A DNA stretch of 64,000 nucleotides from Thermoprotei archaeon (GCA_003649205.1 QMRC01000006.1:13190-77189), one strand, 5' to 3'; shown: positions 33,575 through 55,759, numbered from the stretch's first letter. Translations and numbers: made by a program. The notes: generated by a model not told the origin, from the letters alone.

Positions 33575-34235
33575 TATGGAGTTATTGAACATGAGCAATG
33601 GCGAGGTAGCATTTGAGAGAATAATTCAAGCATTTAAGTTGGCACTAAATGAATTGATAGCACTGGTACCTGTAGTACTAGCATCTGTCCTCATAGTTGC
33701 ACTCATGCTAGTAATTGCTAAGTACGTAGGTTCTCTTGTCAAGAGGATACTGAAGGTAGTTGGTCTAGATAGGATACTTGAGAGGTACGTAGGTACACCA
33801 CCGATATCTGTCGAGAACTTCATCGTCGTATTCATACAGCTGGGCTTCGTAATACTTGGCGTAACAATATCCGTGACAGTATTCGCACCTGAGTACCTAG
33901 CTACCTACAACATGTACCTATCCTATATACTGAGGTTGATGTCGGCTGTAGCACTCATAATAATAACGCTCTTCTGGATAGAGGTACTAGTGAATAAGAT
34001 TCGTGGTGAGAGCAAGGTAAAGGCATTTGCCTCACTAATAGCCTTCCTCCTAATACTCACCTTCATAATCGACGTAACAGCACTATCTGAAAGCGTTAAG
34101 TCATCACTCGTATTCGGAATATCCCTTGGACTTGGATTGACAATAGGAGTATTCTCCATATGGTACTTCATGCATGAATACCTTGAGCACTACATCAGCA
34201 GAAAGCATGGAGAGAAAGAGGTCAGACAAGGCTGA
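33564..34235 (+). CDS. membrane protein; its last 5 codons plus stop form attL
   Basis: 223 aa with several TM helices. The 3' end GAG GTC AGA CAA GGC TGA coincides with the 17-bp direct repeat. Confidence 0.5.
   Translation: MVRSMELLNMSNGEVAFERIIQAFKLALNELIALVPVVLASVLIVALMLVIAKYVGSLVKRILKVVGLDRILERYVGTPPISVENFIVVFIQLGFVILGVTISVTVFAPEYLATYNMYLSYILRLMSAVALIIITLFWIEVLVNKIRGESKVKAFASLIAFLLILTFIIDVTALSESVKSSLVFGISLGLGLTIGVFSIWYFMHEYLEHYISRKHGEKEVRQG
34219..34235. repeat. attL: 17-bp direct repeat AGGTCAGACAAGGCTGA
   Basis: An exact copy occurs at 45006-45022. It lies 10 bp upstream of the integrase gene. Confidence 0.75.
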
Positions 34236-34245
34236 TTGAGTTCTC

Positions 34246-35409
34246 ATGGAAGAAATCACACCTGATAGCCCTATCTATCAGGTGAGAATAGGTCTCAATT
34301 CGATGGAGTTGCTGAAGCACTTTGAGAGTTGGTTAATTGCTCAGAACCTGTCCGTGGCTACGGTTAGGTCTCATGTTAGACAGGTTAGGTCTTTCCTCAC
34401 GTGGTTTGGTAGGTCTATCGAGGATTTGAGTAGTTTCGATATTGCGTGTTACCTAGCTGAGTGCCGTAAGCGTGGTCTATCTGAGGCTAGTGTGAATCGC
34501 TATGCTTCTGCTCTCAAGAAATTCCTGAGGTTCCTAGCTAGTTACTTCAGAGCTAGGAGAAGGGTTGAGTTAGCTAATTACTTTGAGCAGGTGTACCGTG
34601 AGGTCAAGGTACCTAAGTACGACCTAGTTGAGGTCAGCATTAAGCGACACATGGAGCCTGATACAGCGAGGAAAGTCATAGACTTAATTCATGACCCCTA
34701 CTGGAAGTGCTTTTTCGCTGTGCTGTATGAGACAGGTCTGAGGTTGAGGGAGCTTAGACAGGTCAAGGTAAGTGATGTTCACGAGAACAAGCACGGGTTC
34801 GAGATAGTTGTCAGAGATAGCAAGACACCTGAGGGAGTTAGGAAAGTGTACGTGGTTGAGTACTATCAGCTACTGAGGTACTACCTAGAGCATGTACGTC
34901 CGAGAGATAGCGAGTGGTTGTTCCCTGCTAGGAGAGACCCAAGGCAACCAATCTCCGAGAAAGCAATCTACAGCTTTCTAAACCGCTTCAGAAAGCGGAC
35001 AGGTATCGTGATTAGTCCACACCGCTTTAGACACGCTAGAGCTACTGAGCTTTACCGCAAGGGAGTATCTGAGCAGTCGTTAATGAGGTTGTTTGGTTGG
35101 AGGACAAGGACAATGATTGATGTCTACAGTAAGCTTTCACAGCGAGATGTGGAGTCTGAGCTACTGAGCAAGGTCTACGGGCTATCCCCTGTAGAGAGTG
35201 AGAGGTCTCAGACTCGTAAGTGCCCGAGGTGTGGTGCTGAGGTAATACCCACAGCTAGGTACTGTCCATACTGTGGTCTAGCCCTAGATATTGCGTCAGT
35301 ATTAGGCAAAGAGGAACAGGTACGGAAATACGCAGAGCTCATTGAAGCACTGCTGAGGTACCTAGAGGAACACCCAGAGTACCTGTCGAAACTATTCTCA
35401 AGGACTTAA
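34246..35409 (+). CDS. int: tyrosine recombinase/integrase with C-terminal zinc ribbon
   Basis: N-terminal SAM-like core-binding domain. Catalytic blocks are ETGLRLRELRQVKVSDV (Arg), HRFRHARATELY (H-x-x-R) and LFGWRTRTMIDVYS (Tyr). The C-terminal tail carries CPRCGAEV..YCPYCG. Confidence 0.9.
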   Translation: MEEITPDSPIYQVRIGLNSMELLKHFESWLIAQNLSVATVRSHVRQVRSFLTWFGRSIEDLSSFDIACYLAECRKRGLSEASVNRYASALKKFLRFLASYFRARRRVELANYFEQVYREVKVPKYDLVEVSIKRHMEPDTARKVIDLIHDPYWKCFFAVLYETGLRLRELRQVKVSDVHENKHGFEIVVRDSKTPEGVRKVYVVEYYQLLRYYLEHVRPRDSEWLFPARRDPRQPISEKAIYSFLNRFRKRTGIVISPHRFRHARATELYRKGVSEQSLMRLFGWRTRTMIDVYSKLSQRDVESELLSKVYGLSPVESERSQTRKCPRCGAEVIPTARYCPYCGLALDIASVLGKEEQVRKYAELIEALLRYLEEHPEYLSKLFSRT

Positions 35410-35562
35410 AAGCGGACATGAAACACAGGCAGAGAACACCAAGACCCGCCCTATAGTCCAGAGGAAATGTTGCCTGAATTCAACAATAGTCTAATATGCG
35501 TATACGTGTGAGTGAACAGCGAGCGAGGTAATACACCACTTGAGGATGAATAGGGGCTCCTC

Positions 35563-35631
35563 GGGGGATGATGAAGGGCTTAGCGGAGCGACCCCGCAAG
35601 GGGGTATGGCTGGACCAGGCTAGCTGACCCC
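35563..35631 (+). ncRNA. GC-rich structured RNA candidate with external C/D-box-like K-turn (element-borne)
   Basis: GGGG-AUGAUGA (C box 35568-35574) ... CUGA (35624-35627)-CCCC terminal stem, with an internal CCCC-GCAA-GGGG tetraloop hairpin (35592-35603). The internal D'/C' boxes are not recognisable. Confidence 0.35.
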
Positions 35632-35753
35632 TACCCCCTCGCCCCGTGATAATGGGTTATTATCACCAATATTTAAGTTTCTATGCAATTACAGTGAAAT
35701 TACCATGGTTACTTTCTCGTGAGGGGGTTTAAGAACCCTTGATACGTCTTTGC

Positions 35754-36101
35754 TTAGCCTTTCTTTCTGATTAGTCCTCCTATTGCTCCTCCTATCATTG
35801 ATAGGAATGCTGAGGCTAGCATCATGAATATTATTGCTAACCCTGCTAACCCACCTGCCCATGCTCCTAGGAATCCAGCTACTGAGAAGCCTAGTACTGT
35901 CAGCACTATTGCTGCTAGTATTCCTCCAATGATTCCACTGAGGAACCCTGCTGCTGCTCCTCTACCTGCTCCTCCTCCAGCTACTAGACCTGCTATGAAG
36001 CCTCCAAGTACTGGTGCGAAGATGTGTAGTATGGGTGAGAGTACGGCTGTAGCTAACATACCTGCAAAGACACCAGCTATGAAACTCAGTACACGACCCA
36101 T
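35754..36101 (-). CDS. Gly/Ala-rich small membrane protein
   Basis: 115 aa with 3-4 TM helices made of G/A/I/L repeats and a basic C-terminus. The opposite-strand ORF is a Pro/Ala shadow. Confidence 0.5.
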   Translation of the reverse strand: MGRVLSFIAGVFAGMLATAVLSPILHIFAPVLGGFIAGLVAGGGAGRGAAAGFLSGIIGGILAAIVLTVLGFSVAGFLGAWAGGLAGLAIIFMMLASAFLSMIGGAIGGLIRKKG

Positions 36102-36371
36102 GTAGGGAAAACCCCGAGGAAACCAGATACAGAGAGGACATAAAGCAGTTCAGAACATAGAGAGCAATGAACCTAGCAACCTCAGAGGACAGAAAACAAG
36201 AACGCTCCTCCGGTCGGTGATGAATACTTGTACTTTTCTCTCGGTGACTTTCCTCAAGGCACTAAATAAGAAATTGCTCTACTCTACAGTGGTATGGATT
36301 CTGAGGATTTTTGGATTGGTTTTCTCCTTGGTTACAGTACTGGTCTTATTCATGCGAAAAACTTAACAACT

Positions 36372-36755
36372 TCAGAACTTGTCTTCAGGCTCATTTCCTG
36401 TTCCTTCATGCTCAGTGAGTTGTTGGGTACTAGACTTAATGAGTTCTTCAGCTCTTTGGAGAAGTTCAGCGACTTCACGACCCTTCTCAGTGAGCTCAAT
36501 GTACCTAAGACCGTGCTTGGTATACGTCCTAACAAGACCGTACTGAAGACAGGTACTGAGGGCTCTGTAAGTACTGACAGGTGAGATACCGTATCTCTGA
36601 AGTTCTCTAATGTGCATAGCTCTACCTGTTTTGTGAAGAATTAGCAGCAATTTAATTCCCGGTCTACCTAAGTCATCAGCTAGAGCTGACATTTTCCTCT
36701 GTCGTTTTCTGGTGATAAACCTAATAACGATATCTTCGAGCATTCGTAACCTCAT
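36372..36755 (-). CDS. winged-helix transcriptional regulator
   Basis: LLLILHKTGRAMHIRELQRYGISPVSTYRALSTCLQYGLVRTY..YIELTEKGREV is a wHTH (ArsR/MarR-like) pattern. It is transcribed divergently from the RHH-led operon. Confidence 0.65.
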   Translation of the reverse strand: MRLRMLEDIVIRFITRKRQRKMSALADDLGRPGIKLLLILHKTGRAMHIRELQRYGISPVSTYRALSTCLQYGLVRTYTKHGLRYIELTEKGREVAELLQRAEELIKSSTQQLTEHEGTGNEPEDKF

Positions 36756-36786
36756 TCTCAGTCTATACCCGATTTAGAGGTATCAC

Positions 36787-36850
36787 GTAATAATATTACA
36801 ACGCTATATCTCGAAACTGATAAATTGTTATAACGTTACAGAGTTGTAAC
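36787..36850. promoter_or_regulatory. divergent promoter/operator region with inverted repeats
   Basis: GTAATAATATTAC (36787-36799), palindrome GTTATAAC (36827-36834) and GTTACA-gagt-TGTAAC (36835-36850). All lie between the wHTH gene and the RHH gene. Confidence 0.4.
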
Positions 36851-36853
36851 AGG

Positions 36854-37051
36854 GTGAGAGAGGTGCCTAAGAGTAAGGTGCCTATGGTCTTGGTTACCTT
36901 CCATATCCCGATACCACTCCTTAGAGAACTTGACAGGTTGGTGGAGGAGGGTAAGTTCCCGAGCAGGAGCGAGGCGATAAGGCACGCAATAATCCAACTC
37001 CTAGCTCGTGAGCGTCAAAGAACACAAATACACGAGGTGTTGGTAGCGTGA
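36854..37051 (+). CDS. ribbon-helix-helix (CopG/Arc-type) DNA-binding protein
   Basis: MVLVTFHIPIPLLRELDRLVEEGKFPSRSEAIRHAI is a textbook RHH pattern. The true start may be the ATG at 36884. Confidence 0.7.
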   Translation: MREVPKSKVPMVLVTFHIPIPLLRELDRLVEEGKFPSRSEAIRHAIIQLLARERQRTQIHEVLVA

Positions 37052-37296
37052 CCATTGTCAACTATGTCGAGGTAATTAGGAACATCATACTCAATGCTTT
37101 GAAGGAGCATGGCTACATTAGTGACCTAGAGCTTGTTAGGGCTGTCAAAGAGGCTACGGGACTCAGCTACGTAGACTTTGCTCCCATTCTTGAGCAGGTA
37201 CTGAGTGAGCTAATGAGGTCTGGCGCAATTAGACGTGTAATGTCAGCAAGCAACCCGAGAAAGGTCGAGCATGGGTGGGAGCTGTGTACACAATAA
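37048..37296 (+). CDS. hypothetical protein (element)
   Basis: 82-aa ORF coupled to the upstream RHH gene by a GTGA overlap. Confidence 0.5.
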   Translation: MTIVNYVEVIRNIILNALKEHGYISDLELVRAVKEATGLSYVDFAPILEQVLSELMRSGAIRRVMSASNPRKVEHGWELCTQ

Positions 37297-37640
37297 AGCC
37301 GAATGGATTCTACCTCAGGTTGGTTTTGGATGCACTGAAGTACTGTGCTAGGACTGAAAGAGGCTCTATTGTGTCTATTTACCCAAAGAAAGTCGCTAAG
37401 TTAAATGGGTACAGTGTTCGTGCATGTGGGAGGTATAGAGATGACAGTGAGGTAGAGAGGTCGCTATCCCCTGCCGAGCTATCTATCATTAGGTACTGGC
37501 TGGATTACCTCTGGGTCAATGGGCTGTGTAGCCGTGAGAAGACTAGTCGTGACAGGTGGAACTACGTATTCCCGAGGGAGAACTTGCCTAAGGCTATCAA
37601 GCTACTTGAGGAGGTGCTCAATGGTGAAGTACAAGATTGA
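37275..37640 (+). CDS. hypothetical protein (element)
   Basis: 121-aa ORF in the co-directional early-gene string. Confidence 0.5.
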   Translation: MGAVYTIKPNGFYLRLVLDALKYCARTERGSIVSIYPKKVAKLNGYSVRACGRYRDDSEVERSLSPAELSIIRYWLDYLWVNGLCSREKTSRDRWNYVFPRENLPKAIKLLEEVLNGEVQD

Positions 37641-37761
37641 GGAGATAGTCAAGGAGTTGAAGGTTGCTCTCAGGGATAGAGAACTCAGAGAAGCATTGCT
37701 GAAGCACTTCTCCAACAACCCAAAGGCTCAAGCAATCATACTACTCCTGTCAGGTGAGTGA
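37621..37761 (+). CDS. small hypothetical protein (element)
   Basis: The ATG at 37621 (MVKYKIEEIVKELKVALRD..) overlaps the previous stop. The longer track ORF from 37519 overlaps the preceding gene extensively. Confidence 0.35.
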   Translation: MVKYKIEEIVKELKVALRDRELREALLKHFSNNPKAQAIILLLSGE

Positions 37762-38000
37762 GCATGATTGAGCTGAGTTTCAAGACGAAGCGGGACTTCG
37801 ATAACTGGGTTAAGGCGCTGTATGACTTCGGTTCGAATCACTGTGTTGAGCCTGTCGTCATCAAGCTAGATGGTAATGACCTCTACGACAGGTACATGGT
37901 CTGCATTGTGTACCATGCTTGGACTGAGGAAGGTGCTTACGCAGTGACCTGTCTAGCCCGCATAGTAGCGATAGTGTACAGGGAAGGTGAGCAGAAGTGA
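37758..38000 (+). CDS. hypothetical protein (element)
   Basis: 80-aa ORF with a 4-bp overlap with each neighbour. Confidence 0.5.
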   Translation: MSMIELSFKTKRDFDNWVKALYDFGSNHCVEPVVIKLDGNDLYDRYMVCIVYHAWTEEGAYAVTCLARIVAIVYREGEQK

Positions 38001-38179
38001 GTCGCTACCACGGGCACAAGGTAACTATCACGATTATTGCGACAACAGGTTCTGGACTACCGACAGGTGAGCGAAAGAGCGATTTCATTAGATTCATGGT
38101 CGAGCAGGTACTGGAACGTGAGCTTTCTAAGAGGCTCCGTGATTTCCGTGTCCTCAAAGTCATGGTGAAGGTGATGTAG
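37997..38179 (+). CDS. hypothetical protein (element)
   Basis: 60-aa ORF with a GTG start overlapping the previous stop. Confidence 0.4.
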   Translation: MSRYHGHKVTITIIATTGSGLPTGERKSDFIRFMVEQVLERELSKRLRDFRVLKVMVKVM

Positions 38180-38258
38180 ATGGTTCCTGCTACTACTACC
38201 TATTCTATTTCTAGTAATTCGTTTAGACAAAATACGCGGGACATTAAACGCGGTTCAG

Positions 38259-38383
38259 ATTGGAACCAATGTTCCCTCTCAGAGGAATCATTGAAACCAA
38301 TCATTGGAATCAATGTCAGTGGTATGATTGGAACCAATGATTGGAACCAATCATTCCACTCGCTTAGTCTCATTGGTTCCAAA
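38259..38383. repeat. iteron-like array of ATTGGAACCAAT half-palindromic 12-mers
   Basis: Copies lie at 38259-38270, 38290-38301 (ATTGAAACCAAT), 38303-38314 (ATTGGAATCAAT), 38327-38338, 38340-38351 and, inverted, 38372-38383 (ATTGGTTCCAAa). The region has no convincing ORF. Confidence 0.7.
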
Positions 38384-38394
38384 AACGGAGAGAG

Positions 38395-38718
38395 GTGTTG
38401 AGTATCCCCCGAATAACTATCTACATCCATGAGAGCGATTGGGAAAAGCTGACGAAAATAGCTGAGCAGAGAGGACAATCAATGTACAGCATAGTGAAGC
38501 AAGTAGTACTTGAGTTCCTGAAGCTAAGTAACCCAATTGTTGCTCATGGTAAGCTTTCTAGGGATTTAGCTACCTGTCGGAGCATTATCAAGCGATTTGG
38601 TTGGTGTGCTCTCTGCATACATGCTGAGGTTGTTGGTGATAGGTTAGTCTGCAGAAAGACAGGCAAAGTCATAGAAAAACCCATATGGCAATGCCCACAC
38701 CCCATACCCAAGGTGTAA
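38395..38718 (+). CDS. RHH-like N-terminal domain protein with Cys-rich C-terminal region
   Basis: ITIYIHESDWEKLTKIAEQRGQSMYSIVKQVVLEFL has a beta-strand/helix/helix pattern. The C-terminal region is CALCIHAE..CRKTG..CPH. It lies directly downstream of the iteron array. Confidence 0.5.
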   Translation: MLSIPRITIYIHESDWEKLTKIAEQRGQSMYSIVKQVVLEFLKLSNPIVAHGKLSRDLATCRSIIKRFGWCALCIHAEVVGDRLVCRKTGKVIEKPIWQCPHPIPKV

Positions 38719-38727
38719 ATCATGCTT

Positions 38728-38751
38728 TTTACACAGCTGCAGCTGTGTAAA
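38728..38751. promoter_or_regulatory. perfect 24-bp palindrome TTTACACAGCTGCAGCTGTGTAAA
   Basis: Read directly from the sequence. It is flanked by an AAATCAT / ATGATTT inverted pair and GTAAAT repeats, in the 76-bp gap upstream of ORF 38795. Confidence 0.5.
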
Positions 38752-38794
38752 TGATTTTTACTCACTGACAGGTGCGTAAATTTGGTGAGAATTC

Positions 38795-39163
38795 ATGTCC
38801 GAGATGGAGAAGTTAATTAGGAACCTGAACATACTGCGAAACTACTTCAGCAAGGTACCACCTGAAGTCATTGAGGCTCTCATGTACTTTGAGGATAGGT
38901 TCTTCACTGAGAAATACCATGTTGTTCGCTCTAAGACAGGTAGGGAGTATCGCTACAGGTACCTCTACATCAGGTTGAATGACTACAGGACACTAGGTTA
39001 CTTCAGGATAAATGATAGCAATGATGAATTGCTGCTACACGAAATTAGGCAGGTCAAGGCATTTTCACAAGCACTACTACAGTACATAGCAATGCTCAGA
39101 CACAGCAAACTAGCAAACCTCACCAAAATTTACTCAAGGACCTTGAGTAAAAACAACCAATAA
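38795..39163 (+). CDS. hypothetical protein (element)
   Basis: 122-aa ORF with no recognisable motif. Confidence 0.5.
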   Translation: MSEMEKLIRNLNILRNYFSKVPPEVIEALMYFEDRFFTEKYHVVRSKTGREYRYRYLYIRLNDYRTLGYFRINDSNDELLLHEIRQVKAFSQALLQYIAMLRHSKLANLTKIYSRTLSKNNQ

Positions 39164-39224
39164 CACATCAGCAATTGGGGAAATTGAATTGGGGTGATGC
39201 CCCCTGAACCTCAAGGTCTATTTC

Positions 39225-40211
39225 GTGAAGAAAACTAGGCAATACGAGGTCTATGAGGGCTCTAGGAGAATCCTCAGGACTAAGGTACATGCAAAAGCTC
39301 ACGAGTACCTATCGAAACAAATCAATTCAAGTTTTGAGTTCTACTTTGTTTGTTGCAATAGGGAGCACCTGTTAGCATGTTCACGTTTCTTTGAACTCAC
39401 AGGTCGCAGGCTCAATGTGTTGATTAGTTACAACTTCATACGTGACAGGTACCTCACACAGGTGCTTCAGCAAGTTAGACCACACCTAAGCAAAGTCATG
39501 ATTGATTCAGGTGCTTTCCATGTACTTATCCGCAAGGTACCCCTGGAAAAGTTCCAGAGCTACATAGGTGAGTACGTGAATTGGCTCAACAACCACACAG
39601 AGCTTTACGACTACTGTGTCGCACCTGACGTACCCTGTGATGAACGACCCGCAGAAAAAATCCAGAAACTACCAAACAGGTACAAGATAGAGCTAACCAT
39701 AGCTAACACAGTTCACTGGATAGATAGGTTGACAGACCCTCGCAAGGCTGTGGCTGTAGTTCAGGGTTATTTCGTGAATGAGTACCTGCTCTGTGCTGAG
39801 AAGCTGAAAGAACTCGGGCTCACAACAGCAAAGACAGGTGTCGGCTCTTTATGTGTCAGGAAATACAGTAGACAACAAGCACGTGAAGTACCACAGATAC
39901 TAGCTAGCATAAGACAGGTCTTACCGTCATGGGTGAAACTTCACGCATTCGGTCTTCAGCTAGATTTCTTACCGACCTGTCTCAAGTACCTACACAGCTC
40001 AGACAGTGCCTCATGGCAATTAAGTTACTCAAAGTTCAATAGGATACGAATAGCGAACCTGTCGACAGGTCAAACAGTTGAGCTTGATTTAGTTAGTCAT
40101 GGCGGAGCGAGGAAAAAGAACCTAGACCAAGTCACGATATACACATACAACCTCTTAGCCTACTGGAATAGAGTTCAGCAACTAACGAGACAGGCAGCAC
40201 AGACAAAATAA
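39225..40211 (+). CDS. TGT-fold transglycosylase, DpdA-like (candidate DNA or tRNA 7-deazaguanine transglycosylase)
   Basis: The order of blocks matches tRNA-guanine transglycosylases. These are MIDSGAFHV (Asp94, cf. DSGGFQ), AVVQGY (cf. VQGG), GVGSLC, KLHAFGL (cf. xLxGxG) and HSSDSASW (Asp260, cf. FDS/FDC). There is no PUA domain and no Cys-Cys-Cys-His zinc site, as in the short phage/island DpdA proteins. Confidence 0.6.
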   Translation: MKKTRQYEVYEGSRRILRTKVHAKAHEYLSKQINSSFEFYFVCCNREHLLACSRFFELTGRRLNVLISYNFIRDRYLTQVLQQVRPHLSKVMIDSGAFHVLIRKVPLEKFQSYIGEYVNWLNNHTELYDYCVAPDVPCDERPAEKIQKLPNRYKIELTIANTVHWIDRLTDPRKAVAVVQGYFVNEYLLCAEKLKELGLTTAKTGVGSLCVRKYSRQQAREVPQILASIRQVLPSWVKLHAFGLQLDFLPTCLKYLHSSDSASWQLSYSKFNRIRIANLSTGQTVELDLVSHGGARKKNLDQVTIYTYNLLAYWNRVQQLTRQAAQTK

Positions 40212-40230
40212 AGTAAGTGTTGAAAACTGC

Positions 40231-40995
40231 TCAAGTCCCCATGTTCTCTATCTCATGTCCTGTAGGGTATAGGTTCAGTTTCTTTATGTACTTGTACACT
40301 GTTTGACGTGAAACACCGAGTGCTCTAGCTATATCACTTATACTGTAACCTTTCTTCAACATATCCTCAATAGTCTTCTCCCTATTAGCAGTCTGGATAG
40401 CTACCTGTAAGTCCATGAACACCTTCTCAACAAAGAGCCTCCTCATTTCCTGATACTTCACATAGATGTCGTGGTCTAGCTTAGGCACGAAGGTATCTAC
40501 ACCAATTTCCTTCACCACGAACTTACCCGTAGGAGTCCACGTAAACCTGTAGATGTGTGCCTCTCTCTCACCTTGCTTACTCTTCCTAATGTGTACATGT
40601 ATCCAACACATCTCACGTAGTGCTCTTAAGAGCAGGCGATAGGTAGGTACCGTGAATATGACAGCACCTGTCACAGTCCTAGCAACCTCAAGGAACTTTA
40701 CAAATAGCTGACGGTCTTCTTTAAGAAAGTCATATTTGCTTATCCACACACCAGCATCATCATAGCACAGACACTTAACACGCTTACGATACCTAAGACA
40801 CTCCCTAATAATTGGGAAAGACTGCTTAACATCGAAGAATACGTAGTTGAGAGCAGTCTCCCTACAATACAGCTCACTCAAGACCTTGATAGCGTAGGTA
40901 GTCTTACCAACCCCTTGCTGACCCTGAATAACAATAACCTCAAATCCATTGTTCCTGAAAGCACGCTCAATTATCTTAGTTAGGACAAACGGCAT
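40231..40995 (-). CDS. P-loop NTPase with C-terminal helix-turn-helix
   Basis: Walker A QGQQGVGKTTYA, Walker B-like CLCYDDAG, and a C-terminal GYSISDIARALGVSRQTVYKYIKKL (resolvase/HTH_7-like). Confidence 0.7.
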   Translation of the reverse strand: MPFVLTKIIERAFRNNGFEVIVIQGQQGVGKTTYAIKVLSELYCRETALNYVFFDVKQSFPIIRECLRYRKRVKCLCYDDAGVWISKYDFLKEDRQLFVKFLEVARTVTGAVIFTVPTYRLLLRALREMCWIHVHIRKSKQGEREAHIYRFTWTPTGKFVVKEIGVDTFVPKLDHDIYVKYQEMRRLFVEKVFMDLQVAIQTANREKTIEDMLKKGYSISDIARALGVSRQTVYKYIKKLNLYPTGHEIENMGT

Positions 40996-40998
40996 ACC

Positions 40999-41301
40999 TC
41001 ACTCCTCCTCAATCTCCTCCTCACGACCAACAGGTATGAACCTCTTACGACCCATTACATGCGTTATAGTCCTGAAGAACTTAGCAAACGATAGCAGAGC
41101 TGAGTAACCACGACCGCCCTCAGCTAACCTCAACTCAAGGTAAGGTATGATGAATGAGTCTCTCAAGTCCTGAAGGTTGTACCTGTCGCATATGAAGAGC
41201 AACGTAGCTATCTTACGAGCCTCACCATACTGCAACCTAGTTAAGCGAAGTATGTTCCCCGAGGTAAGAGCCTCAATTAGTTCCTCTGACATGAGCCTCA
41301 C
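40999..41301 (-). CDS. hypothetical protein (element)
   Basis: 100-aa ORF with an acidic tail, coupled to the neighbouring genes. Confidence 0.5.
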   Translation of the reverse strand: MRLMSEELIEALTSGNILRLTRLQYGEARKIATLLFICDRYNLQDLRDSFIIPYLELRLAEGGRGYSALLSFAKFFRTITHVMGRKRFIPVGREEEIEEE

Positions 41302-41302
41302 C

Positions 41303-41758
41303 TCACAGGTGAATGATACCGAACTTCACGAGCATGAACATGATGTACGCACCTATGATTAACCCACAAATCAGAGCAATGATGACAGGAGTAGCCCTAA
41401 CAGGTACCTTCTCCGTTAGCAGAGCCCTCAGTACCTGTCCCTTGATAATCTGCGATATAGTGTCACTATCAATGTAGGGGTCTTGATATTGACCACAGAA
41501 GTACACTATCTTTCTGACAGGTGCCCACACCTTCACGTCTCTAAACACCCTAACCCTACCCCCAGCAAGCACCAGCTTCCTCTCCGGATTGAGCAATTTA
41601 GCAGGCGTAATCTCGACATGCTTATCGTTCACGATAATAGCTATGTGCTTTGACCTGAAGATACGTCCTTCAGGTCTCGCTAGGAACATCATGATGAATG
41701 TGACAGGTATAGCTACGCAGTATATTGCGACTAGGATAGGGCTCAACATAGGGCTCAC
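41303..41758 (-). CDS. membrane protein (element)
   Basis: 151 aa with N- and C-terminal TM helices. Confidence 0.5.
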   Translation of the reverse strand: MSPMLSPILVAIYCVAIPVTFIMMFLARPEGRIFRSKHIAIIVNDKHVEITPAKLLNPERKLVLAGGRVRVFRDVKVWAPVRKIVYFCGQYQDPYIDSDTISQIIKGQVLRALLTEKVPVRATPVIIALICGLIIGAYIMFMLVKFGIIHL

Positions 41759-42280
41759 CTACAGAGTCTTCTCAGCTTCAGCAATGAGCTTGTTCAGGAC
41801 CTGCTCAACCCTCTCAATTCGCTTAGCTAACTCACTGAGCCTATCCTCACTATGATTTGAGCCTAGCTTACTCACGTCGATAGCGTCTAGGAATATCGAG
41901 AGCGGAACAGCAATAGCGTACTCAAACCTCTCAACCTTACCACTCTGCTCGACAGGTATCGTAACTTGCTGAGCCTCCCTCTCCCTCACCAAAATCAGAA
42001 CACGGTCAGGATTCCTAACCGCAGAGACAGGTAGCTTAGACAGGTACGGTCTCCTACCTGTCTCACTTTCGGACGTGTACGGTCTACCTCTCTGAAAGTG
42101 AAGTACTAAGCACAGAGCACCGAGACTAGCTAGAGCAATGAAACCAACCCACTTCAGCGTAAAGACCGCTCCAGAGGATATCTTAGCAGTCAGTGGTGAC
42201 AGGTATGGGTCATACCAAATCAAGTACATGACTGCACCTGTGAGCAGTGCTGTGCTCAGGTAAAGGAAACGAGTACTCAC
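41759..42280 (-). CDS. membrane protein (element)
   Basis: 173 aa with three N-terminal TM helices and a C-terminal coiled segment. Confidence 0.5.
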   Translation of the reverse strand: MSTRFLYLSTALLTGAVMYLIWYDPYLSPLTAKISSGAVFTLKWVGFIALASLGALCLVLHFQRGRPYTSESETGRRPYLSKLPVSAVRNPDRVLILVREREAQQVTIPVEQSGKVERFEYAIAVPLSIFLDAIDVSKLGSNHSEDRLSELAKRIERVEQVLNKLIAEAEKTL

Positions 42281-42405
42281 TTACAACCCACCTCACTTAT
42301 GTAAACTTTTTCACAAAAACCATAAGGTCAACTTGCGAGATATCCTGAATAATCACTGAACACGGAGCAAACCTGAGACAGGTCGAAAAGTAGGAGGTGA
42401 AGTAG

Positions 42406-42765
42406 GTGGACATAGACCTAGGGAACATCCTGAGAGCTGTCCTGTTTGTAGCCCTAATACCCACGCTATTCGGAGCTATAGCTGGATTCGTTGACCCTTC
42501 ACTACAACCAATGATACAGCCCCTACTCAGCCTAGTACCAATGCTCATAATCCTCAACCTAATCAAAGACCTGTTCTCAGAAGCTGGAGCAAAGGGATTC
42601 GTCAAGATATTCGATATCCTACTGCTCGTAATGATGTTACCTGTCCTAATCAACATGTTCGGAGCAGCCACAGGACAAAACGAAGCACTAGCACAAGTCT
42701 CAGGACTCCTACAGCAACTCCTACCAATCCTACTATTCATCAAGCTCATCGAAGAGATGGTTTAG
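42406..42765 (+). CDS. small membrane protein (element)
   Basis: 119 aa with 3-4 TM helices. It is immediately upstream of the large glycoprotein gene. I prefer it to the antisense track ORF 42297..42749. Confidence 0.5.
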   Translation: MDIDLGNILRAVLFVALIPTLFGAIAGFVDPSLQPMIQPLLSLVPMLIILNLIKDLFSEAGAKGFVKIFDILLLVMMLPVLINMFGAATGQNEALAQVSGLLQQLLPILLFIKLIEEMV

Positions 42766-42786
42766 TTCCTTCGAGGTGATTAAGCT

Positions 42787-44541
42787 ATGAAACCCAAGCC
42801 CCTTTTTGCAATCTTAACAGTACTCACTCTAGTGCTCATAGTGGCGGTTGTTAATGCTGGTGAGTACACGCTATACGATGTACTTCAGTACGCTCATGAG
42901 GTACATGTCTTCGGAAAGACATACAACACAGCAAGTTATGGCACCACAACTTACTCTGGGACATGGAATCTAACTGATGTTGTGTCGGGGAGGAAAGTTA
43001 CATTTGGCTACAGGCAATACCTACAAGACCCAGATAGCTCCGACACAATCGTTATTGTGTTTCAGAAGAATACAGCTATCGAGGTCGGTACTGGTAGCGG
43101 GAAGTGTGTCTACGGTAAACCTGTCGTAATTACGTATGATACTGAAACAGGAAGGAGGACTATGTACTACATTGATGGCGGTGAACTGAAGAAAGTAGGT
43201 GAATTCACTGGTGGTACCTACGTCTACTGGAACGGTACAAAGTTATGTCAAGCACTACGTTTCAAGGACTGGTTAGATTTCCACAAGTTCTTTAACAACA
43301 CATGCATGTTAATACTCCCAGACATCACGACATACGACTACAGGATAATTGATGGGTCTTCCGAGCTATTAAAGGATAAGTGTGGTGGAAATGGTTTCCA
43401 CACCCTCATTATCTTCGGTGGTGAGTACCTAAACAAATCGATAATTGTTGAAGTTGCTGGAGCCTACGGAATCAAGAACATAACGCTCACTACAGAACTC
43501 AACACAGTCTACACGATTGACCCAAAGCACTTGAAGTTAGCTGTGTTCACAGGTAACCTAACGGAGACGCTATCGAGGGCGAGCCAGAGCACAGAGGAAA
43601 GTACACAGGAAAGTACAACTAACACGACAAACGAGACCTCAACACCAACCACAGCACCAGAGACGAAGGTGTACAAGGTCACGATACATGTCTACGATGT
43701 GGATACCAATGAGGAAATCACATCAGCAATGGTTAAGGCGGGTTGGTTCACGAAGACAGGTTCACCTGTTACCTTTGAGTTCAAGTGGAAGGAACCACAG
43801 TGGTTACCTATCTCAGCTAGTGCTACAGGTTACAAGTCCTTCAGCACAACTATCTGGGTCGATACCAACATGACGCTGTGGGTAGGGCTAGTCAAGGAAA
43901 CCTCGAACAGCACCGAGCAATACAGTAAATTACTGAGGCTCGGTGTCTCAATTGCGGGTGTTGGTTCAACTCCATATTGGGCTCAGGAAAACAAGACATT
44001 CACAGAGTGGGCTAATGAGGTTGAGCAGTTACTATCCTCATCACAGGCTCCTGAGGTTAAGTATGAGACTACGTGGTATGGTTTGAAGATAGTCGCTGTG
44101 AAGGTACCTTCAGGTAGACCAGCATACGGAGTAGCGACTATTGTCGCTGTTAAGAAAGGATTTCTCGGTACCCTAACATGGGAAGAAGAACTCGGTACTG
44201 TGCAAATAGTGAATGGTACGGGTTATTTCCATGTTGACTACGAGACAATCAAGAACAAGCTACAACTCAAAGAGTGGGGAGGGGAGTACTTCTACGGTTT
44301 CAAGATTGTATGGAAGGTCGGTGACCTAGACCCAGAGGTCGAGGTTGTACCTGTCAAGAATACATGGACGCCTGTCTACATTCAGGTGAATGAGCAGACA
44401 GGAACCTACTCAGCAACAACACTACCACAGACAGCATTAACGAATGTCGGAACATCACTAACACAGATGCTCATAACCCTACTACCACTGTTCATCATAT
44501 TCGCACTCATTGGAGCTATTACAGGTCGTAGAAGGCGATAG
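42787..44541 (+). CDS. large secreted, C-terminally anchored glycoprotein-like protein (candidate virion/envelope or surface protein)
   Basis: Signal peptide MKPKPLFAILTVLTLVLIVAVVNA. Many N-x-S/T sequons. Thr/Ser-rich linker ESTQESTTNTTNETSTPTTAPETK. C-terminal TM helix plus RRRR stop-transfer. Confidence 0.6.
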   Translation: MKPKPLFAILTVLTLVLIVAVVNAGEYTLYDVLQYAHEVHVFGKTYNTASYGTTTYSGTWNLTDVVSGRKVTFGYRQYLQDPDSSDTIVIVFQKNTAIEVGTGSGKCVYGKPVVITYDTETGRRTMYYIDGGELKKVGEFTGGTYVYWNGTKLCQALRFKDWLDFHKFFNNTCMLILPDITTYDYRIIDGSSELLKDKCGGNGFHTLIIFGGEYLNKSIIVEVAGAYGIKNITLTTELNTVYTIDPKHLKLAVFTGNLTETLSRASQSTEESTQESTTNTTNETSTPTTAPETKVYKVTIHVYDVDTNEEITSAMVKAGWFTKTGSPVTFEFKWKEPQWLPISASATGYKSFSTTIWVDTNMTLWVGLVKETSNSTEQYSKLLRLGVSIAGVGSTPYWAQENKTFTEWANEVEQLLSSSQAPEVKYETTWYGLKIVAVKVPSGRPAYGVATIVAVKKGFLGTLTWEEELGTVQIVNGTGYFHVDYETIKNKLQLKEWGGEYFYGFKIVWKVGDLDPEVEVVPVKNTWTPVYIQVNEQTGTYSATTLPQTALTNVGTSLTQMLITLLPLFIIFALIGAITGRRRR

Positions 44542-44544
44542 AGC

Positions 44545-44847
44545 ATGACTAACCGCTACGTCTACCTTGGAAAGAAAGTGAAGGACATAGGCAAGAAAGG
44601 ACTAGACCGACCAAGCGAGTACCTAGCAATAGCGAGAGCTATAGCACAAGACTACAAGGCTGGTAGGATAAGTAAAAAGACTGCTCACGGACGCTTTTTA
44701 CTACTTTACAGGCTCGTGGATAAGAATAGCAAGCTGAAGGTACCTAAGTCAGTTAAGGAACGTCTCAAACGCAAGATTAAGGAAATCTGGATGAAGACCA
44801 TTGGAGGTGGGAAGGTGGCTCGAAAGAGGAAAAGAAAGAAAAGGTAG
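44545..44847 (+). CDS. small basic protein (possible nucleic-acid-binding)
   Basis: 100 aa, Lys/Arg-rich, with the C-terminal tail ARKRKRKKR. Confidence 0.5.
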   Translation: MTNRYVYLGKKVKDIGKKGLDRPSEYLAIARAIAQDYKAGRISKKTAHGRFLLLYRLVDKNSKLKVPKSVKERLKRKIKEIWMKTIGGGKVARKRKRKKR

Positions 44848-45003
44848 GCTCAAGTCACATCACCTGTATGTCGCTCTAACTACCTAATTTCTTGAGCTTG
44901 CTCTAGTCCTCAAGAATTCTTTACACATGTCTCATGTCCTGCGACCTGTCACCTAGACCTGAACTAGCTCAAGACAGAAGGTGGGTGACTTCTCTCAACT
45001 TAT

Positions 45004-45060
45004 TTAGGTCAGACAAGGCTGAATTCTTCACGGATCTGCCTCGCCTGGGCTCATCATAAA
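45004..45060 (-). ncRNA. C/D box sRNA (dual guide) whose 3' end is the att core
   Basis: The minus strand reads AUGAUGA(C, 45051-45057)-GCCCAGGCGAGG(12)-CAGA(D', 45035-45038)-UCC-GUGAAGA(C', 45025-45031)-AUUCAGCCUUGU(12)-CUGA(D, 45009-45012)-CCU. Confidence 0.75.
45006..45022. repeat. attR: 17-bp direct repeat AGGTCAGACAAGGCTGA
   Basis: Exact copy of 34219-34235. It lies inside the 3' part of the minus-strand C/D box sRNA. Confidence 0.75.
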
Positions 45061-45101
45061 GCAGCCAATTACCTACTCTCGAGACCCTCTAATAAAGATC
45101 A

Positions 45102-46557: not shown

Positions 46558-46610
46558 TACACTCTAATAATTCTTAGCAATTCTTCCCCTAAAGAATAGG
46601 TCAAGACGAG

Positions 46611-46808
46611 GTGATGTATTTGTCAACTAAGAAACGTGAAGAGAGATGGGGTACGTGCCCGAAGTGTGGTGGAGGATTGAGAAGGAGAAATCACCCAGAG
46701 ATATTCCAGTGTAGGAAGTGTGGTACGTACTTCTGTGGTAGGTGTTGGAAGGCAGAATTCATGTCCTATGCAGAAGCTTTAGAGCACTTAAAGGACTGTA
46801 CTGGTTAA
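46611..46808 (+). CDS. small zinc-ribbon protein
   Basis: CPKCGG..x13..CRKCGTYFCGRC, 65 aa. Confidence 0.5.
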   Translation: MMYLSTKKREERWGTCPKCGGGLRRRNHPEIFQCRKCGTYFCGRCWKAEFMSYAEALEHLKDCTG

Positions 46809-46837
46809 GGTGATGTACTCTGAATAACTTATCCTAT

Positions 46838-49388: not shown

Positions 49389-49393
49389 TGTAG

Positions 49394-50161: not shown

Positions 50162-50227
50162 TAGTCAGTATCACTACAGCAAGGTACTATTAAATGTGAC
50201 CTACCTTAGACCTAGCTTTGCTGAACT

Positions 50228-55694: not shown

Positions 55695-55759
55695 ATGTGA
55701 GTTACTTTGGTATATGTGGTGCTCATGGATTCGATACCTGCGTCCATGTAGTTTACATG

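What the first reader, a model, noticed from the sequence alone, without database searches (positions are those of the whole stretch)
34219..45022. The heptamer GACAGGT / ACCTGTC is massively over-represented throughout the element
By manual count I find about 24 GACAGGT on the plus strand. Examples are 34379, 34731, 34757, 34998, 36548, 36576, 36932, 37551, 37887, 38062, 38767, 38935, 39444, 39833, 39913, 40064, 41702, 41951, 42026, 42038, 42198, 42376 and 43754. I find about 14 ACCTGTC, for example at 34345, 35351, 37928, 38571, 39975, 40057, 40648, 41180, 41443, 42057, 42629, 43129, 44349 and 44945. That is about 38 copies in 10.8 kb, against roughly 1.3 expected for a 7-mer on both strands with equiprobable bases. 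The core hexamer ACAGGT/ACCTGT occurs about 57 times. A comparable host stretch (9001-20000) gave me only about 6. Copies fall in all three reading frames (R-Q-V, D-R-Y/W, x-T-G), on both strands, and in both coding and non-coding DNA. The flanking bases show no consensus. This points to selection at the DNA level rather than on a peptide. Two copies form perfect palindromes: ACCTGTCGACAGGT at 40057-40070 and ACAGGTTCACCTGT at 43756-43769. Possible roles are distributed binding sites for an element-encoded DNA-binding or packaging protein, a self-marking or uptake-type signal, or the recognition context of the element's TGT/DpdA-like enzyme.
Basis: seen in the sequence. Interest (0 to 1): 0.85.

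Follow-up and report, generated by a model that had tools for sequence, protein, structure and literature searches.

The report
Provirus saturated with one seven-base word
A 10.8-kb virus integrated in an archaeal genome carries 38 copies of GACAGGT where about two are expected, written into its genes in every reading frame, and the best lead is that the word is the target of the virus's own DNA base-swapping enzyme.

Summary
GACAGGT/ACCTGTC occurs 38 times inside 34219-45022 and 11 times in the other 53 kb. Host-trained Markov models of order 0 to 5 expect 1 to 2 copies.

All copies lie inside an integrated fusellovirus-like element bounded by a perfect 17-bp direct repeat. The word is exactly 7 bp with no flank consensus. 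It has Poisson-like spacing, sits on both strands, and is read in all six coding contexts.

It overrides coding constraints. 35 of the 67 positions where the proteins permit the word actually carry it, against a median of 1.4% for control heptamers. The proteins themselves are biased to permit it.

What reads the word is not shown. The best lead is the element's divergent TGT-fold DpdA-like enzyme. Unrelated mobile elements that share only this gene show the same kind of enrichment of CAGG-core words (TCAGGA, TCAGGT, AACAGGT). Controls do not.

I infer dense, element-specific 7-deazaguanine marking at confidence 0.45. The main rival is binding by the element's unusual AAA+ ATPase with a fused HTH domain.

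I found no prior description. Modification-aware sequencing or LC-MS would decide.

The parts
34219..45022 (.). Integrated fusellovirus-like element (provirus), 10,804 bp including both att repeats. All 38 motif copies lie inside it.
   Evidence: 17-bp direct repeats at both ends. A 4-mer composition log-likelihood with the motif masked switches sign at about 34.2 and 45.0 kb. Motif histogram.
34219..34235 (+). attL: AGGTCAGACAAGGCTGA. It overlaps the 3' end and stop codon of the host MscS-like gene 33564-34235.
   Evidence: Perfect 17-bp direct repeat with 45006-45022. Pfam MS_channel hit on the host gene.
45006..45022 (+). attR: AGGTCAGACAAGGCTGA
34346..34352 (-). motif copy (ACCTGTC on + strand)
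34379..34385 (+). motif copy GACAGGT
34731..34737 (+). motif copy GACAGGT
34757..34763 (+). motif copy GACAGGT
34998..35004 (+). motif copy GACAGGT
35381..35387 (-). motif copy (ACCTGTC on + strand)
36548..36554 (+). motif copy GACAGGT
36576..36582 (+). motif copy GACAGGT
36932..36938 (+). motif copy GACAGGT
37551..37557 (+). motif copy GACAGGT
37887..37893 (+). motif copy GACAGGT
37947..37953 (-). motif copy (ACCTGTC on + strand)
38062..38068 (+). motif copy GACAGGT
38572..38578 (-). motif copy (ACCTGTC on + strand)
38767..38773 (+). motif copy GACAGGT (intergenic)
38935..38941 (+). motif copy GACAGGT
39444..39450 (+). motif copy GACAGGT (in dpdA-like gene)
39833..39839 (+). motif copy GACAGGT (in dpdA-like gene)
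39913..39919 (+). motif copy GACAGGT (in dpdA-like gene)
39975..39981 (-). motif copy (ACCTGTC on + strand; in dpdA-like gene)
40057..40063 (-). motif copy (ACCTGTC), left half of the 14-bp palindrome ACCTGTCGACAGGT
40064..40070 (+). motif copy GACAGGT, right half of the 14-bp palindrome
40666..40672 (-). motif copy (ACCTGTC on + strand)
41181..41187 (-). motif copy (ACCTGTC on + strand)
41433..41439 (-). motif copy (ACCTGTC on + strand)
41702..41708 (+). motif copy GACAGGT
41951..41957 (+). motif copy GACAGGT
42026..42032 (+). motif copy GACAGGT
42039..42045 (+). motif copy GACAGGT
42056..42062 (-). motif copy (ACCTGTC on + strand)
42198..42204 (+). motif copy GACAGGT
42377..42383 (+). motif copy GACAGGT (intergenic)
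42639..42645 (-). motif copy (ACCTGTC on + strand)
43119..43125 (-). motif copy (ACCTGTC on + strand)
43755..43761 (+). motif copy GACAGGT
44349..44355 (-). motif copy (ACCTGTC on + strand)
44944..44950 (-). motif copy (ACCTGTC on + strand; intergenic, 56 bp before attR)
34246..35409 (+). Tyrosine integrase, intact, with an N-terminal SAM-like domain and a C-terminal zinc ribbon
   Evidence: Pfam Phage_integrase 3.4e-24, Phage_int_SAM_1 1.8e-13
39225..40211 (+). DpdA-like DNA/tRNA-guanine transglycosylase homologue (328 aa). Proposed reader/writer of the motif.
   Evidence: PF23859 DpdA 27.0 bits (cut-off 27) and phrog_1279 4e-11. NCBIfam DpdA 1e-7. AlphaFold2 pLDDT 83; best Foldseek matches are TGT, ArcTGT and DpdA 7ui4. 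Invariant DSGAF and SSDS motifs.
40231..40995 (-). Fusellovirus B251/DnaA-like AAA+ ATPase with a C-terminal HTH_7 domain (residues 205-240). Rival candidate reader.
   Evidence: phrog_5484 5e-41, HTH_7 4.3e-10. 35% identity to the SMF1 DnaA-like protein. SSV1 and SMF1 homologues have no HTH.
38255..38385 (.). Intergenic iteron/operator-like array of at least 6 TTGGAACCAA-type pseudo-palindromes. It holds no GACAGGT and is a conventional target for the element's HTH/RHH proteins.
36854..37051 (+). Ribbon-helix-helix (CopG-type) protein
   Evidence: PF01402 4.1e-09
42787..44541 (+). 584-aa secreted and C-terminally anchored protein with a Thr/Ser-rich linker. By position it is the end-filament/adhesin analogue. 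No detectable homologues.
   Evidence: Translation. No Pfam or PHROG hit. No relatives in IMG/VR.
44545..44847 (+). 100-aa highly basic protein, the VP2-like position at the end of the structural module
   Evidence: Translation. SMF1 gene order for comparison.

Best explanation
GACAGGT is the recognition word of the provirus's own DpdA-like guanine transglycosylase (39225-40211). The enzyme would swap a guanine in or opposite the word for a 7-deazaguanine base. The base would come from preQ0, which the archaeal host makes for archaeosine. This gives the viral DNA a dense, element-specific chemical mark of about 3.5 sites per kb.

Because the enzyme needs a long word, mark density can only rise if the genome acquires more copies. 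Selection has therefore pushed the word into every place that coding allows, and into some places it did not.

Shown: the enrichment and its DNA-level nature; the TGT fold and conserved motifs of the enzyme; and recurrence of CAGG-core word enrichment in unrelated elements that share only this gene.

Inferred: that the enzyme acts on DNA, that this word is its target, which G is exchanged, and what the mark is used for. Possible uses are protection from host nucleases or CRISPR, or self-recognition for packaging.
For: (1) 38 copies against 1-2 expected. The word is strictly 7 bp with no flank consensus. It appears in six reading contexts, 18 sense and 16 antisense, with Poisson-like spacing.

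(2) 35 copies in CDS against 7.4 +/- 2.5 after synonymous shuffling. 52% of synonymously reachable positions are realised, against a median of 1.4% for 60 control heptamers. There are 67 reachable positions against 23 +/- 4 after shuffling residue order.

(3) The element encodes a TGT-fold DpdA-like protein. It has an invariant DSGAF motif, like the DSGG[YF] catalytic motif of TGT (from memory), and an invariant SSDS motif.

(4) Loci carrying 41-47% identical homologues show DNA-level enrichment of CAGG-core words that beats every one of 1000 synonymous shuffles, in several frames and on both strands. TCAGGA is enriched in L001, L002 and L008, and in the unrelated filamentous-virus contig L005. 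TCAGGT(A) is enriched in the probably circular L147. AACAGGT is enriched in L151.

(5) tblastx finds only the dpdA-like gene shared between the window element, L005 and the L002/L147 lineage.

(6) Rank test. The best CAGG-core 6-mer ranks 1-3 of 2080 in 7 of 10 loci of this clade. In 15 controls the ranks are 2 (a distant DpdA-like locus), 10, 12, and then 21 to 1226. The controls were host windows, SSV1, SMF1, STSV2, HTH-only contigs and others.

(7) Contigs with the co-occurring 177-aa HTH protein but no DpdA lack TCAGGA enrichment. They share AGACGTCT/CGTCTCA instead.

(8) Viral DpdA enzymes are known to be sequence-specific. An archaeal virus with DpdA (STSV2) modifies only 0.04% of its G, which implies rare sites (PMC7544227 and PMC10484667 abstracts; PMC10516641).

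(9) The host encodes ArcS-C1 and RaSEA-like archaeosine genes next to the element, so a preQ0 supply is plausible.
Against: No modification data exist. Known DpdA target contexts are 2-3 nt (GA, GGC), not 7 nt, and no DpdA-encoding virus has been reported to enrich its target.

One sizeable locus with a homologue (L009) shows no dispersed CAGG-core word. Four short fragments (L012-L015) show none either.

Support rests on only three independent lineages out of four.

In L002 and L008, TCAGGA also forms tight intergenic clusters that look like ordinary protein-binding arrays.

The match to curated DpdA models is marginal. It scores 27.0 bits at the Pfam cut-off and 31 bits against an NCBIfam cut-off of 200. 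The TGT CxCxxC zinc site is not evident.

Why a virus would raise site number rather than relax enzyme specificity is not explained. The element also avoids GATC completely, so modification clearly does not give it general protection.
Confidence: 0.45

Rival explanations
1. The word is a dispersed binding site for an element-encoded DNA-binding protein. The most likely candidate is the B251/DnaA-like AAA+ ATPase, which here carries an extra C-terminal HTH_7 domain. Many monomer sites spread over the genome would let the protein coat, condense or select the viral DNA for replication or for packaging into the spindle-shaped virion. Genomes with more sites would win.
For: The HTH_7 fusion is specific to this element. 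SSV1 B251 and the SMF1 DnaA-like protein have no HTH. A single HTH can read an asymmetric 6-7 bp word without dyad symmetry, which fits the orientation-independent single copies. ATPases with a C-terminal DNA-reading domain that recognise over-represented 8-mers are known (FtsK gamma with KOPS; established knowledge). The TCAGGA lineage also carries an HTH_7-type protein next to dpdA, and TCAGGA forms intergenic clusters there.
Against: L005 shows TCAGGA enrichment with no HTH_7 protein in the 21 kb seen. Contigs with the HTH177 protein but no DpdA show no TCAGGA enrichment, and a different palindrome (AGACGTCT/CGTCTCA) tracks that protein. The window element has a conventional iteron array of another sequence at 38255-38385, which is a more usual HTH/RHH target. 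There is no strand polarity of the kind a translocase guide would show (24:14 overall, 18:16 relative to genes).
Confidence: 0.28
2. The word is read by a host factor, not by the element. It could be a Chi-like, uptake-like or recombination signal, or a decoy that titrates or blocks a host defence or repair protein. Mobile elements of these Thermoprotei would then accumulate it.
For: CAGG-core words recur in several unrelated elements from similar hot, anoxic metagenomes. Fuselloviruses of Sulfolobales do the opposite and avoid CAGG strongly, with 8 observed against 77 expected in SMF1 and 22 against 65 in SSV1. This hints that some cellular activity cares about this core.
Against: The host flanks are neutral for the heptamer, with 11 observed against 5-10 expected. 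The flanks of L001 and L002 are not enriched either. The flanking bases of the enriched word differ between elements (GACAGGT, AACAGGT, TCAGGA, TCAGGT). This points to an element-encoded, fast-evolving specificity rather than one host factor. There is no polarity as in Chi or KOPS.
Confidence: 0.12
3. The enrichment is a non-adaptive by-product of a sequence-biased mutation or repair process. Examples are a very-short-patch-type repair, or base exchange by the transglycosylase at near-cognate sites. Such a process would convert neighbouring words into the cognate word, in the way VSP repair inflates CCWGG-related words in E. coli.
For: Copies are placed as if at random along the element and ignore gene orientation and frame. 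Protein sequences have been altered to carry the word. A repair-driven word bias has precedent (established knowledge).
Against: One-mismatch neighbours are not depleted. They number 51 in the element against about 32 expected from host density, which is what decay of selected sites predicts and not conversion of neighbours. TGT-type enzymes exchange guanine only (established knowledge), so they cannot create most of the seven positions. A 17-35-fold excess of a 7-mer is far beyond known repair-driven biases.
Confidence: 0.08
4. The enrichment is a by-product of composition, codon or dipeptide usage, or of a hidden repeat family.
For: The element differs from the host in composition: GC is 45.7% against 43.3%, and the 4-mer signature is distinct.
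Against: All three frames are used on both strands. Synonymous shuffling that keeps each gene's codon usage gives 7.4 copies against 35 observed, with a maximum of 16 in 2000 shuffles. There is no flank consensus, so this is not a repeat family. Single-mismatch variants are not enriched to any comparable degree. After masking the word, no other word stands out.
Confidence: 0.02

Closest known systems
DNA uptake sequences (Neisseria DUS, Pasteurellaceae USS)
   Same: A short asymmetric word, over-represented tens to hundreds of fold. It is found in both orientations, inside genes in all frames as well as between them. It serves as a 'self' tag and distorts codon and amino-acid choice.
   Different: Those words mark whole cellular genomes at about 1 per kb and are read by the competence machinery. 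Here the word marks only a 10.8-kb provirus at 3.5 per kb. The host flanks are not enriched, and no uptake system is involved.
Sequence-specific DpdA modification in viruses (phage CAjan GA/GGC, phage iggy GA, Sulfolobus virus STSV2)
   Same: A virus-encoded TGT-family transglycosylase inserts preQ0-derived bases post-replicatively at defined sequence contexts (PMC7544227, PMC10484667, PMC10516641). An archaeal host pathway can supply the base.
   Different: Known contexts are 2-3 nt and are not reported as enriched. Here a 7-nt word is 17-35-fold enriched. The enzyme belongs to a small, very divergent clade, with 11 homologues among 5.8 billion proteins and no sequence-level PDB hit. Modification itself is untested.
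Polar guide words read by motor proteins (Chi/RecBCD, KOPS/FtsK gamma, SRS/SpoIIIE)
   Same: Over-represented 7-8-bp asymmetric words read by a protein machine.
   Different: Those words are strongly strand-skewed with respect to replication. Here the orientation is 24:14 overall and 18:16 relative to genes.
Iterons, operators and centromere-like arrays of plasmids and viruses
   Same: Repeated short words bound by element-encoded HTH or RHH proteins.
   Different: Those words are clustered in non-coding DNA. The element has such an array with a different sequence (TTGGAACCAA, 38255-38385). GACAGGT is spread evenly and mostly lies inside genes.
Fuselloviridae (SSV1, SMF1) proviruses
   Same: A B251/DnaA-like ATPase, 31-35% identical. 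Also a tyrosine integrase, RHH regulators, a small hydrophobic capsid-like protein, a large end-filament-position protein and a basic VP2-position protein. Genome size is 10-17 kb.
   Different: The integrase is not split by integration. There is an extra HTH on the ATPase and a DpdA-like gene. The host is a Thermoprotei MAG, not a member of Sulfolobales. SSV1 and SMF1 have no comparable word and instead avoid CAGG.

Membership tests
DpdA / TGT superfamily (DNA or tRNA guanine transglycosylase) | TGT-type TIM-barrel fold | tested here: met
   AlphaFold2 model has pLDDT 83.4 and pTM 0.86. The best Foldseek PDB matches are bacterial TGT, archaeal ArcTGT 1iq8 and DpdA 7ui4, at E about 1e-7 and TM 0.5-0.6.
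DpdA / TGT superfamily | Score above curated family thresholds | tested here: inconclusive
   Pfam PF23859 scores 27.0 bits against a cut-off of 27.0. NCBIfam DpdA NF041059 scores 31 bits against a cut-off of 200. phrog_1279 scores 4e-11. There is no sequence-level hit to any PDB chain.
DpdA / TGT superfamily | Catalytic aspartates (the DSGG[YF]-type motif and a second Asp nucleophile) | tested here: inconclusive
   D94 in DSGAF and D260 in SSDS are invariant in 11 homologues. Equating them with the TGT catalytic residues rests on recalled motifs, not on a residue-level structural superposition. No CxCxxC zinc site was seen.
DpdA / TGT superfamily | 7-deazaguanine present in the DNA at a defined motif | not testable with these tools
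   This needs LC-MS/MS or modification-aware sequencing of native DNA.
Fuselloviridae | B251/DnaA-like AAA+ ATPase core gene | tested here: met
   phrog_5484 at 5e-41. tblastn gives 30-35% identity to 57 SSV-type genomes.
Fuselloviridae | SSV-type integrase whose gene is split by integration (attP inside int) | tested here: not met
   The integrase ORF 34246-35409 is intact. The att is a 17-bp repeat at the element ends, outside int.
Fuselloviridae | Recognisable VP1/VP3 capsid and VP4 end-filament homologues | tested here: not met
   No Pfam or PHROG hit for the 584-aa protein or the other structural-position ORFs. Only positional and compositional resemblance exists, such as the Gly-rich hydrophobic 115-aa ORF 35754-36101.
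Uptake-signal type self words (DUS/USS) | Over-representation throughout the genome of the organism that reads it | tested here: not met
   Host flanks hold 11 copies in 53 kb against 5-10 expected. Enrichment stops at the att repeats.
Polar guide words (Chi, KOPS, SRS) | Strong strand skew | tested here: not met
   24 plus and 14 minus copies. Relative to genes, 18 sense and 16 antisense. The cumulative skew shows no clear switch.
Iteron / operator arrays | Clustering in non-coding DNA | tested here: not met
   Spacing CV is 0.89 against 0.97 for random placement. 35 of 38 copies lie in CDS, at similar density in and out of genes.

The most novel reading that the evidence does not exclude
A small clade of archaeal-virus DpdA-like transglycosylases reads long CAGG-core words, with flanks that evolve from element to element. 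Their carrier genomes have been reshaped, codon by codon and even residue by residue, to maximise the number of sites. The DNA would then carry a dense 7-deazaguanine 'barcode' of self. This would be the first case of a virus evolving its sequence towards its own hypermodification enzyme rather than the reverse. It would also be a natural set of programmable, 6-7-bp-specific DNA base-exchange enzymes.
Probability: 0.35. Interest if true: 0.9.

Novelty: new variant of a known kind. Interest (0 to 1): 0.78.

Why it matters
If the word is the target of the DpdA-like enzyme, three things follow.

- 7-deazaguanine DNA modification can be specific for a 7-bp word. Sequence-specific base-exchange enzymes of that kind would be useful tools.
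- A virus can be under strong enough selection for mark density to rewrite its own coding sequence.
- There would be a concrete handle on what such marks do in hyperthermophilic archaea, for example evasion of nucleases or CRISPR, or self-recognition for packaging.

That step is not understood for fuselloviruses.

Either way this is, to my knowledge, the densest element-specific word reported. It is about 3.5 per kb, against roughly 1 per kb for uptake sequences.

Tried and rejected
1. Codon, dipeptide or composition explanation. Rejected by the frame and strand table, synonymous shuffling, residue-order shuffling and host-trained Markov models.

2. Hidden repeat family or MITE. Rejected because there is no flank consensus and repeat finding returns only the word itself.

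3. Regular or helical phasing, or clustering. Spacing is Poisson-like.

4. A second enriched word. None appears after masking.

5. Close relatives of the element, wanted for gain/loss polymorphism. The same locus is 100% identical in two other assemblies. There are no relatives of the ATPase or the 584-aa protein in IMG/VR. The ATPase has no homologue other than itself in the word-indexed protein search.

6. Scan of IMG/VR for triple GACAGGT within 30-nt gaps. It returned only tandem, collagen-like coding repeats and no dispersed enrichment.

7. The idea that the ArcS-C1/RaSEA-like pair right of attR belongs to the element. Rejected because it lies outside the att repeat and is host-like in 4-mer composition.

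8. STSV2, an archaeal virus with DpdA and ArcS, as a positive comparator. Its DpdA is barely alignable to this one, and it has no CAGG-type word.

9. L009's top words GTTTAAAC and GTTAAC. These are intergenic arrays, not a dispersed word.

10. Literature searches for a prior description found none.

Full report
**Observation.** GACAGGT occurs 24 times and ACCTGTC 14 times on the + strand within 34219-45022. The remaining 53.2 kb holds 11 copies. In 2-kb bins the density is 6-8 inside the element and 0-2 outside. A few example coordinates were off by 10-30 nt, and one copy (41516) was not listed. The hexamer count is 58. The second 'perfect palindrome' (43756-43769) is really an inverted hexamer pair around a TC spacer.

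**Significance.** Markov models of order 0-5 trained on the host flanks predict 1.1-2.1 copies in 10.8 kb. An order-2 model trained on the element predicts 3.3. Poisson P is about 1e-27 to 1e-33. Orders 4-5 trained on the element are circular, because their sub-words come from the motif copies. The top 7-mer z-score is 19.2 in the element and 5.8-7.8 in five host windows of equal size. The host is neutral for the word, with 11 observed against 5-10 expected.

**Anatomy of the word.** It is sharply 7 bp. No single-mismatch variant approaches it; the best is AACAGGT with 9 copies. Twelve bases of flank on each side show no consensus apart from a mild A at +1. After masking the word, nothing else in the element stands out.

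- Of the 34 copies that the hand annotation places inside genes, 18 are sense and 16 antisense.
- All six reading contexts are used: DR[YWL], [RG]QV and xTG for the sense word, and TC[LR], [NY]LS and xPV for the antisense word.
- Spacing is Poisson-like, with CV 0.89 against 0.97 for random placement. There is no phasing.
- Strand orientation is 24:14 with no clear switch point.

**The word overrides coding.** Under the gene set, which adds ORF 42406-42765, 35 of the 38 copies lie in CDS.

- Shuffling synonymous codons within each gene, which keeps protein sequence and codon usage, gives 7.4 +/- 2.5 copies against those 35. The maximum was 16 in 2000 shuffles.
- Of the 67 positions where the encoded proteins would tolerate the word by synonymous choice, 35 (52%) carry it. 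For 60 control heptamers of the same composition the median is 1.4% and the maximum 18%.
- Shuffling residue order within proteins leaves only 23 +/- 4 tolerant positions, with a maximum of 36. So the amino-acid sequences themselves have been bent towards the word.

This is selection or drive on double-stranded DNA, not on peptides or RNA.

**The element.** A perfect 17-bp direct repeat, AGGTCAGACAAGGCTGA, sits at 34219-34235 and at 45006-45022. The first copy overlaps the 3' end of a host MscS-like gene. A 4-mer composition score with the word masked flips sign at the same two places. The element encodes:

- an intact tyrosine integrase;
- RHH and wHTH regulators;
- a DpdA-like protein;
- a B251/DnaA-like AAA+ ATPase, 31-35% identical to those of SSV-type fuselloviruses, here with an extra C-terminal HTH_7 domain;
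- small hydrophobic proteins;
- a 584-aa secreted protein and a basic 100-aa protein.

It is a fusellovirus-like provirus of a Thermoprotei MAG. It does not meet two fusellovirus criteria: a split integrase and detectable capsid or VP4 homology. It has no close relatives in the collections searched. The identical locus appears in two other assemblies.

**Who reads the word: the DpdA-like lead.** The 328-aa protein folds as a TGT-type barrel. The AlphaFold2 model has pLDDT 83, and its best matches are TGT, ArcTGT and DpdA 7ui4. It sits at the Pfam DpdA threshold. It keeps invariant DSGAF and SSDS motifs across its 11 known homologues.

I fetched the contigs that encode those homologues. None is enriched in GACAGGT, but several are enriched in other CAGG-core words:

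- L001, L002, L003 and L008 (related small elements): TCAGGA. For example 33 observed against 6.3 expected in L002, and 19 in 3.2 kb in L003.
- L005, an unrelated filamentous-virus contig with Sulf_coat_C and Cren7 genes: TCAGGA, 42 against 13.7.
- L147, a probably circular 8.4-kb element: TCAGGT(A), 18 against 5.6.
- L151: AACAGGT, 7 against 0.6.

In L001, L002, L008 and L005 the excess exceeds all 1000 synonymous shuffles and uses several frames on both strands. The non-element part of L002 shows none.

tblastx finds only the dpdA-like gene in common between the window element, L005 and the L002/L147 lineage.

In a rank test, the best CAGG-core 6-mer is rank 1-3 of 2080 in 7 of 10 loci of this clade. 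It is rank 9 in two loci and rank 289 in L009. In 15 controls the ranks are 2 (L016, which has a 27%-identical DpdA-like gene), 10, 12, and then 21 to 1226. Only 2.3% of 6-mers contain the core. Counting independent lineages only (window, L001 group, L005, L009), three of four have rank 1, which by chance is roughly 5e-5.

**Who reads the word: the HTH rival.** The C-terminal HTH_7 on the ATPase is absent from SSV1 B251 and the SMF1 homologue. The TCAGGA lineage also carries an HTH_7-type 177-aa protein near dpdA. Three results count against it:

- Contigs with that protein but no DpdA (L148/L149, L150) lack TCAGGA enrichment.
- A different palindrome, AGACGTCT/CGTCTCA, tracks that protein.
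- The window element has its own conventional iteron array, TTGGAACCAA with at least 6 copies at 38255-38385. That array is a more usual target for HTH or RHH proteins.

In its favour, TCAGGA also forms tight intergenic clusters in L002 (180-277) and in L008 (956-1069), which look like binding arrays.

**Proposed mechanism.**

- Shown: the enrichment, its DNA-level nature, the enzyme's fold, and the cross-element association.
- Inferred: the DpdA-like enzyme recognises GACAGGT/ACCTGTC and replaces a guanine with a preQ0-derived 7-deazaguanine. The host makes preQ0 for archaeosine. A stand-alone ArcS C1 domain with the PC-x3-KPY-x2-S-x2-H motif and a RaSEA-like radical-SAM protein lie just outside attR (the motif is described in PMC10516641).
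- Inferred: because a 7-bp specificity gives few sites, selection for mark density would act on the genome, filling every tolerated position.

What the mark does is open. It could block nucleases or CRISPR effectors, or tag self for packaging. General restriction protection is unlikely to be the whole story. The element has eliminated GATC entirely (0 against about 36 expected from host density), as well as GGCC (0) and nearly all CCWGG (2 against 13). It therefore still relies on site avoidance.

**Other rivals.** A host-read signal is disfavoured by neutral host flanks and by element-specific flanking bases. A mutational or repair drive is disfavoured because one-mismatch neighbours are slightly enriched (51 against about 32 expected), not depleted, and because TGT chemistry exchanges only guanine. 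Composition or codon artefacts are excluded.

**Comparison with known systems and novelty.** In form the word resembles uptake sequences, but it is confined to a virus and is three to four times denser. It lacks the polarity of Chi or KOPS and the clustering of iterons. Sequence-specific viral DpdA enzymes are known with GA and GGC contexts (PMC7544227, PMC10484667). An archaeal virus with DpdA modifies only 0.04% of its G (PMC10516641). A long target word that the carrier genome has been reshaped to maximise has not been described in the literature I could search. I rate it a new variant of a known kind. The stronger reading, a self-barcode of 7-deazaguanine written by 6-7-bp-specific base-exchange enzymes, is given at probability 0.35.

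**Limits.** There are no modification or binding data. Only three independent lineages support the association. One clade member (L009) and several short fragments lack a word. Most comparison contigs are incomplete. The word analyses in the comparison loci were exploratory, and the CAGG core was recognised post hoc.

Noticed in passing
window 34219-45022: The element contains no GATC at all, against about 36 expected from the host density of 178 in 53 kb. It also has no GGCC (5.5 expected) and only 2 CCWGG (13 expected). The host flanks have normal counts. This is a classic restriction-avoidance signature that coexists with the enriched heptamer.
   Followed up: partly
window 45102-46557 (- strand): Immediately outside attR lie two host-like genes. 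One is a stand-alone ArcS C1 domain (DUF5591, with the motif PC-AYG-KPY-SQ-S-YI-H). The other is a short RaSEA-like radical-SAM protein (TIGR01210, 2.7e-11). This is the archaeosine pathway, in the same C1-only architecture that phages and STSV2 use next to DpdA. Composition and the att repeat place them in the host, so the adjacency to a DpdA-bearing provirus may be coincidence.
   Followed up: partly
window 38255-38385: An intergenic array of at least 6 TTGGAACCAA / ATTGGTTCCAA pseudo-palindromes. It lies in a 220-bp gap that a gene caller left empty. It is a candidate origin or operator of the element.
   Followed up: partly
window 34219-34235 and 45006-45022: A perfect 17-bp direct repeat, AGGTCAGACAAGGCTGA (att sites), at the 3' end of a MscS-like gene. 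The integrase gene is not split, unlike in SSV-type integration. The core contains GACAAGG, one insertion away from GACAGG, which is probably chance.
   Followed up: yes
L024 (SMF1, NC_020882.1) and L025 (SSV1, NC_001338.1), whole genomes: Sulfolobales fuselloviruses strongly avoid CAGG/CCTG. SMF1 has 8 observed against 77 expected, and SSV1 has 22 against 65. SMF1 also has 0 GGCC against 115 expected. This is the opposite of the enrichment seen in the DpdA-like-bearing elements.
   Followed up: no
L001, L002, L008, L148, L149, L151: The palindrome AGACGTCT, or its part CGTCTCA, is strongly over-represented wherever the 177-aa HTH_7/Cys-rich protein family is encoded. It often lies in intergenic DNA near that gene and is probably that protein's operator.
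   Followed up: partly
L147 (JBPKTK010000143.1), 1-8445: The dpdA-like gene is split across the two contig ends (2-736 and 8050-8445, same strand). The 8.4-kb contig is therefore probably a complete circular plasmid-like element, carrying DpdA, the HTH protein and an AAA ATPase.
   Followed up: no
L002 180-277; L008 956-1069: Tight clusters of TCAGGA. L002 has 7 copies in 100 bp. L008 has 6 copies in 115 bp just upstream of dpdA, interleaved with GGTTATGACCATGG and AGACGTCT repeats.
   Followed up: partly
L009 5990-6100 and 7200-7430: GTTTAAAC (4 sites; 8 against 0.1 when both strands are counted, as) and GTTAAC (9 sites; 18 against 2.7 on the same count) form intergenic arrays in a 51% GC contig that carries a DpdA-like gene but has no dispersed word.
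   Followed up: partly
L005/L006/L007 (46-kb contig, IMGVR_UViG_3300005265_000744): A filamentous-virus-like contig with a Sulf_coat_C capsid domain, Cren7 and glycosyltransferases. It carries a DpdA-like gene and shows a genome-wide 3-fold excess of TCAGGA.
   Followed up: partly
window 1-34218 and 45023-64000: The host DNA has a marked word bias. TACCTA, AGGTAC, AAGTAC and AGCTAG are its commonest hexamers, at about 120-140 copies in 53 kb, presumably from codon usage. This explains the mild A preference after the heptamer.
   Followed up: no
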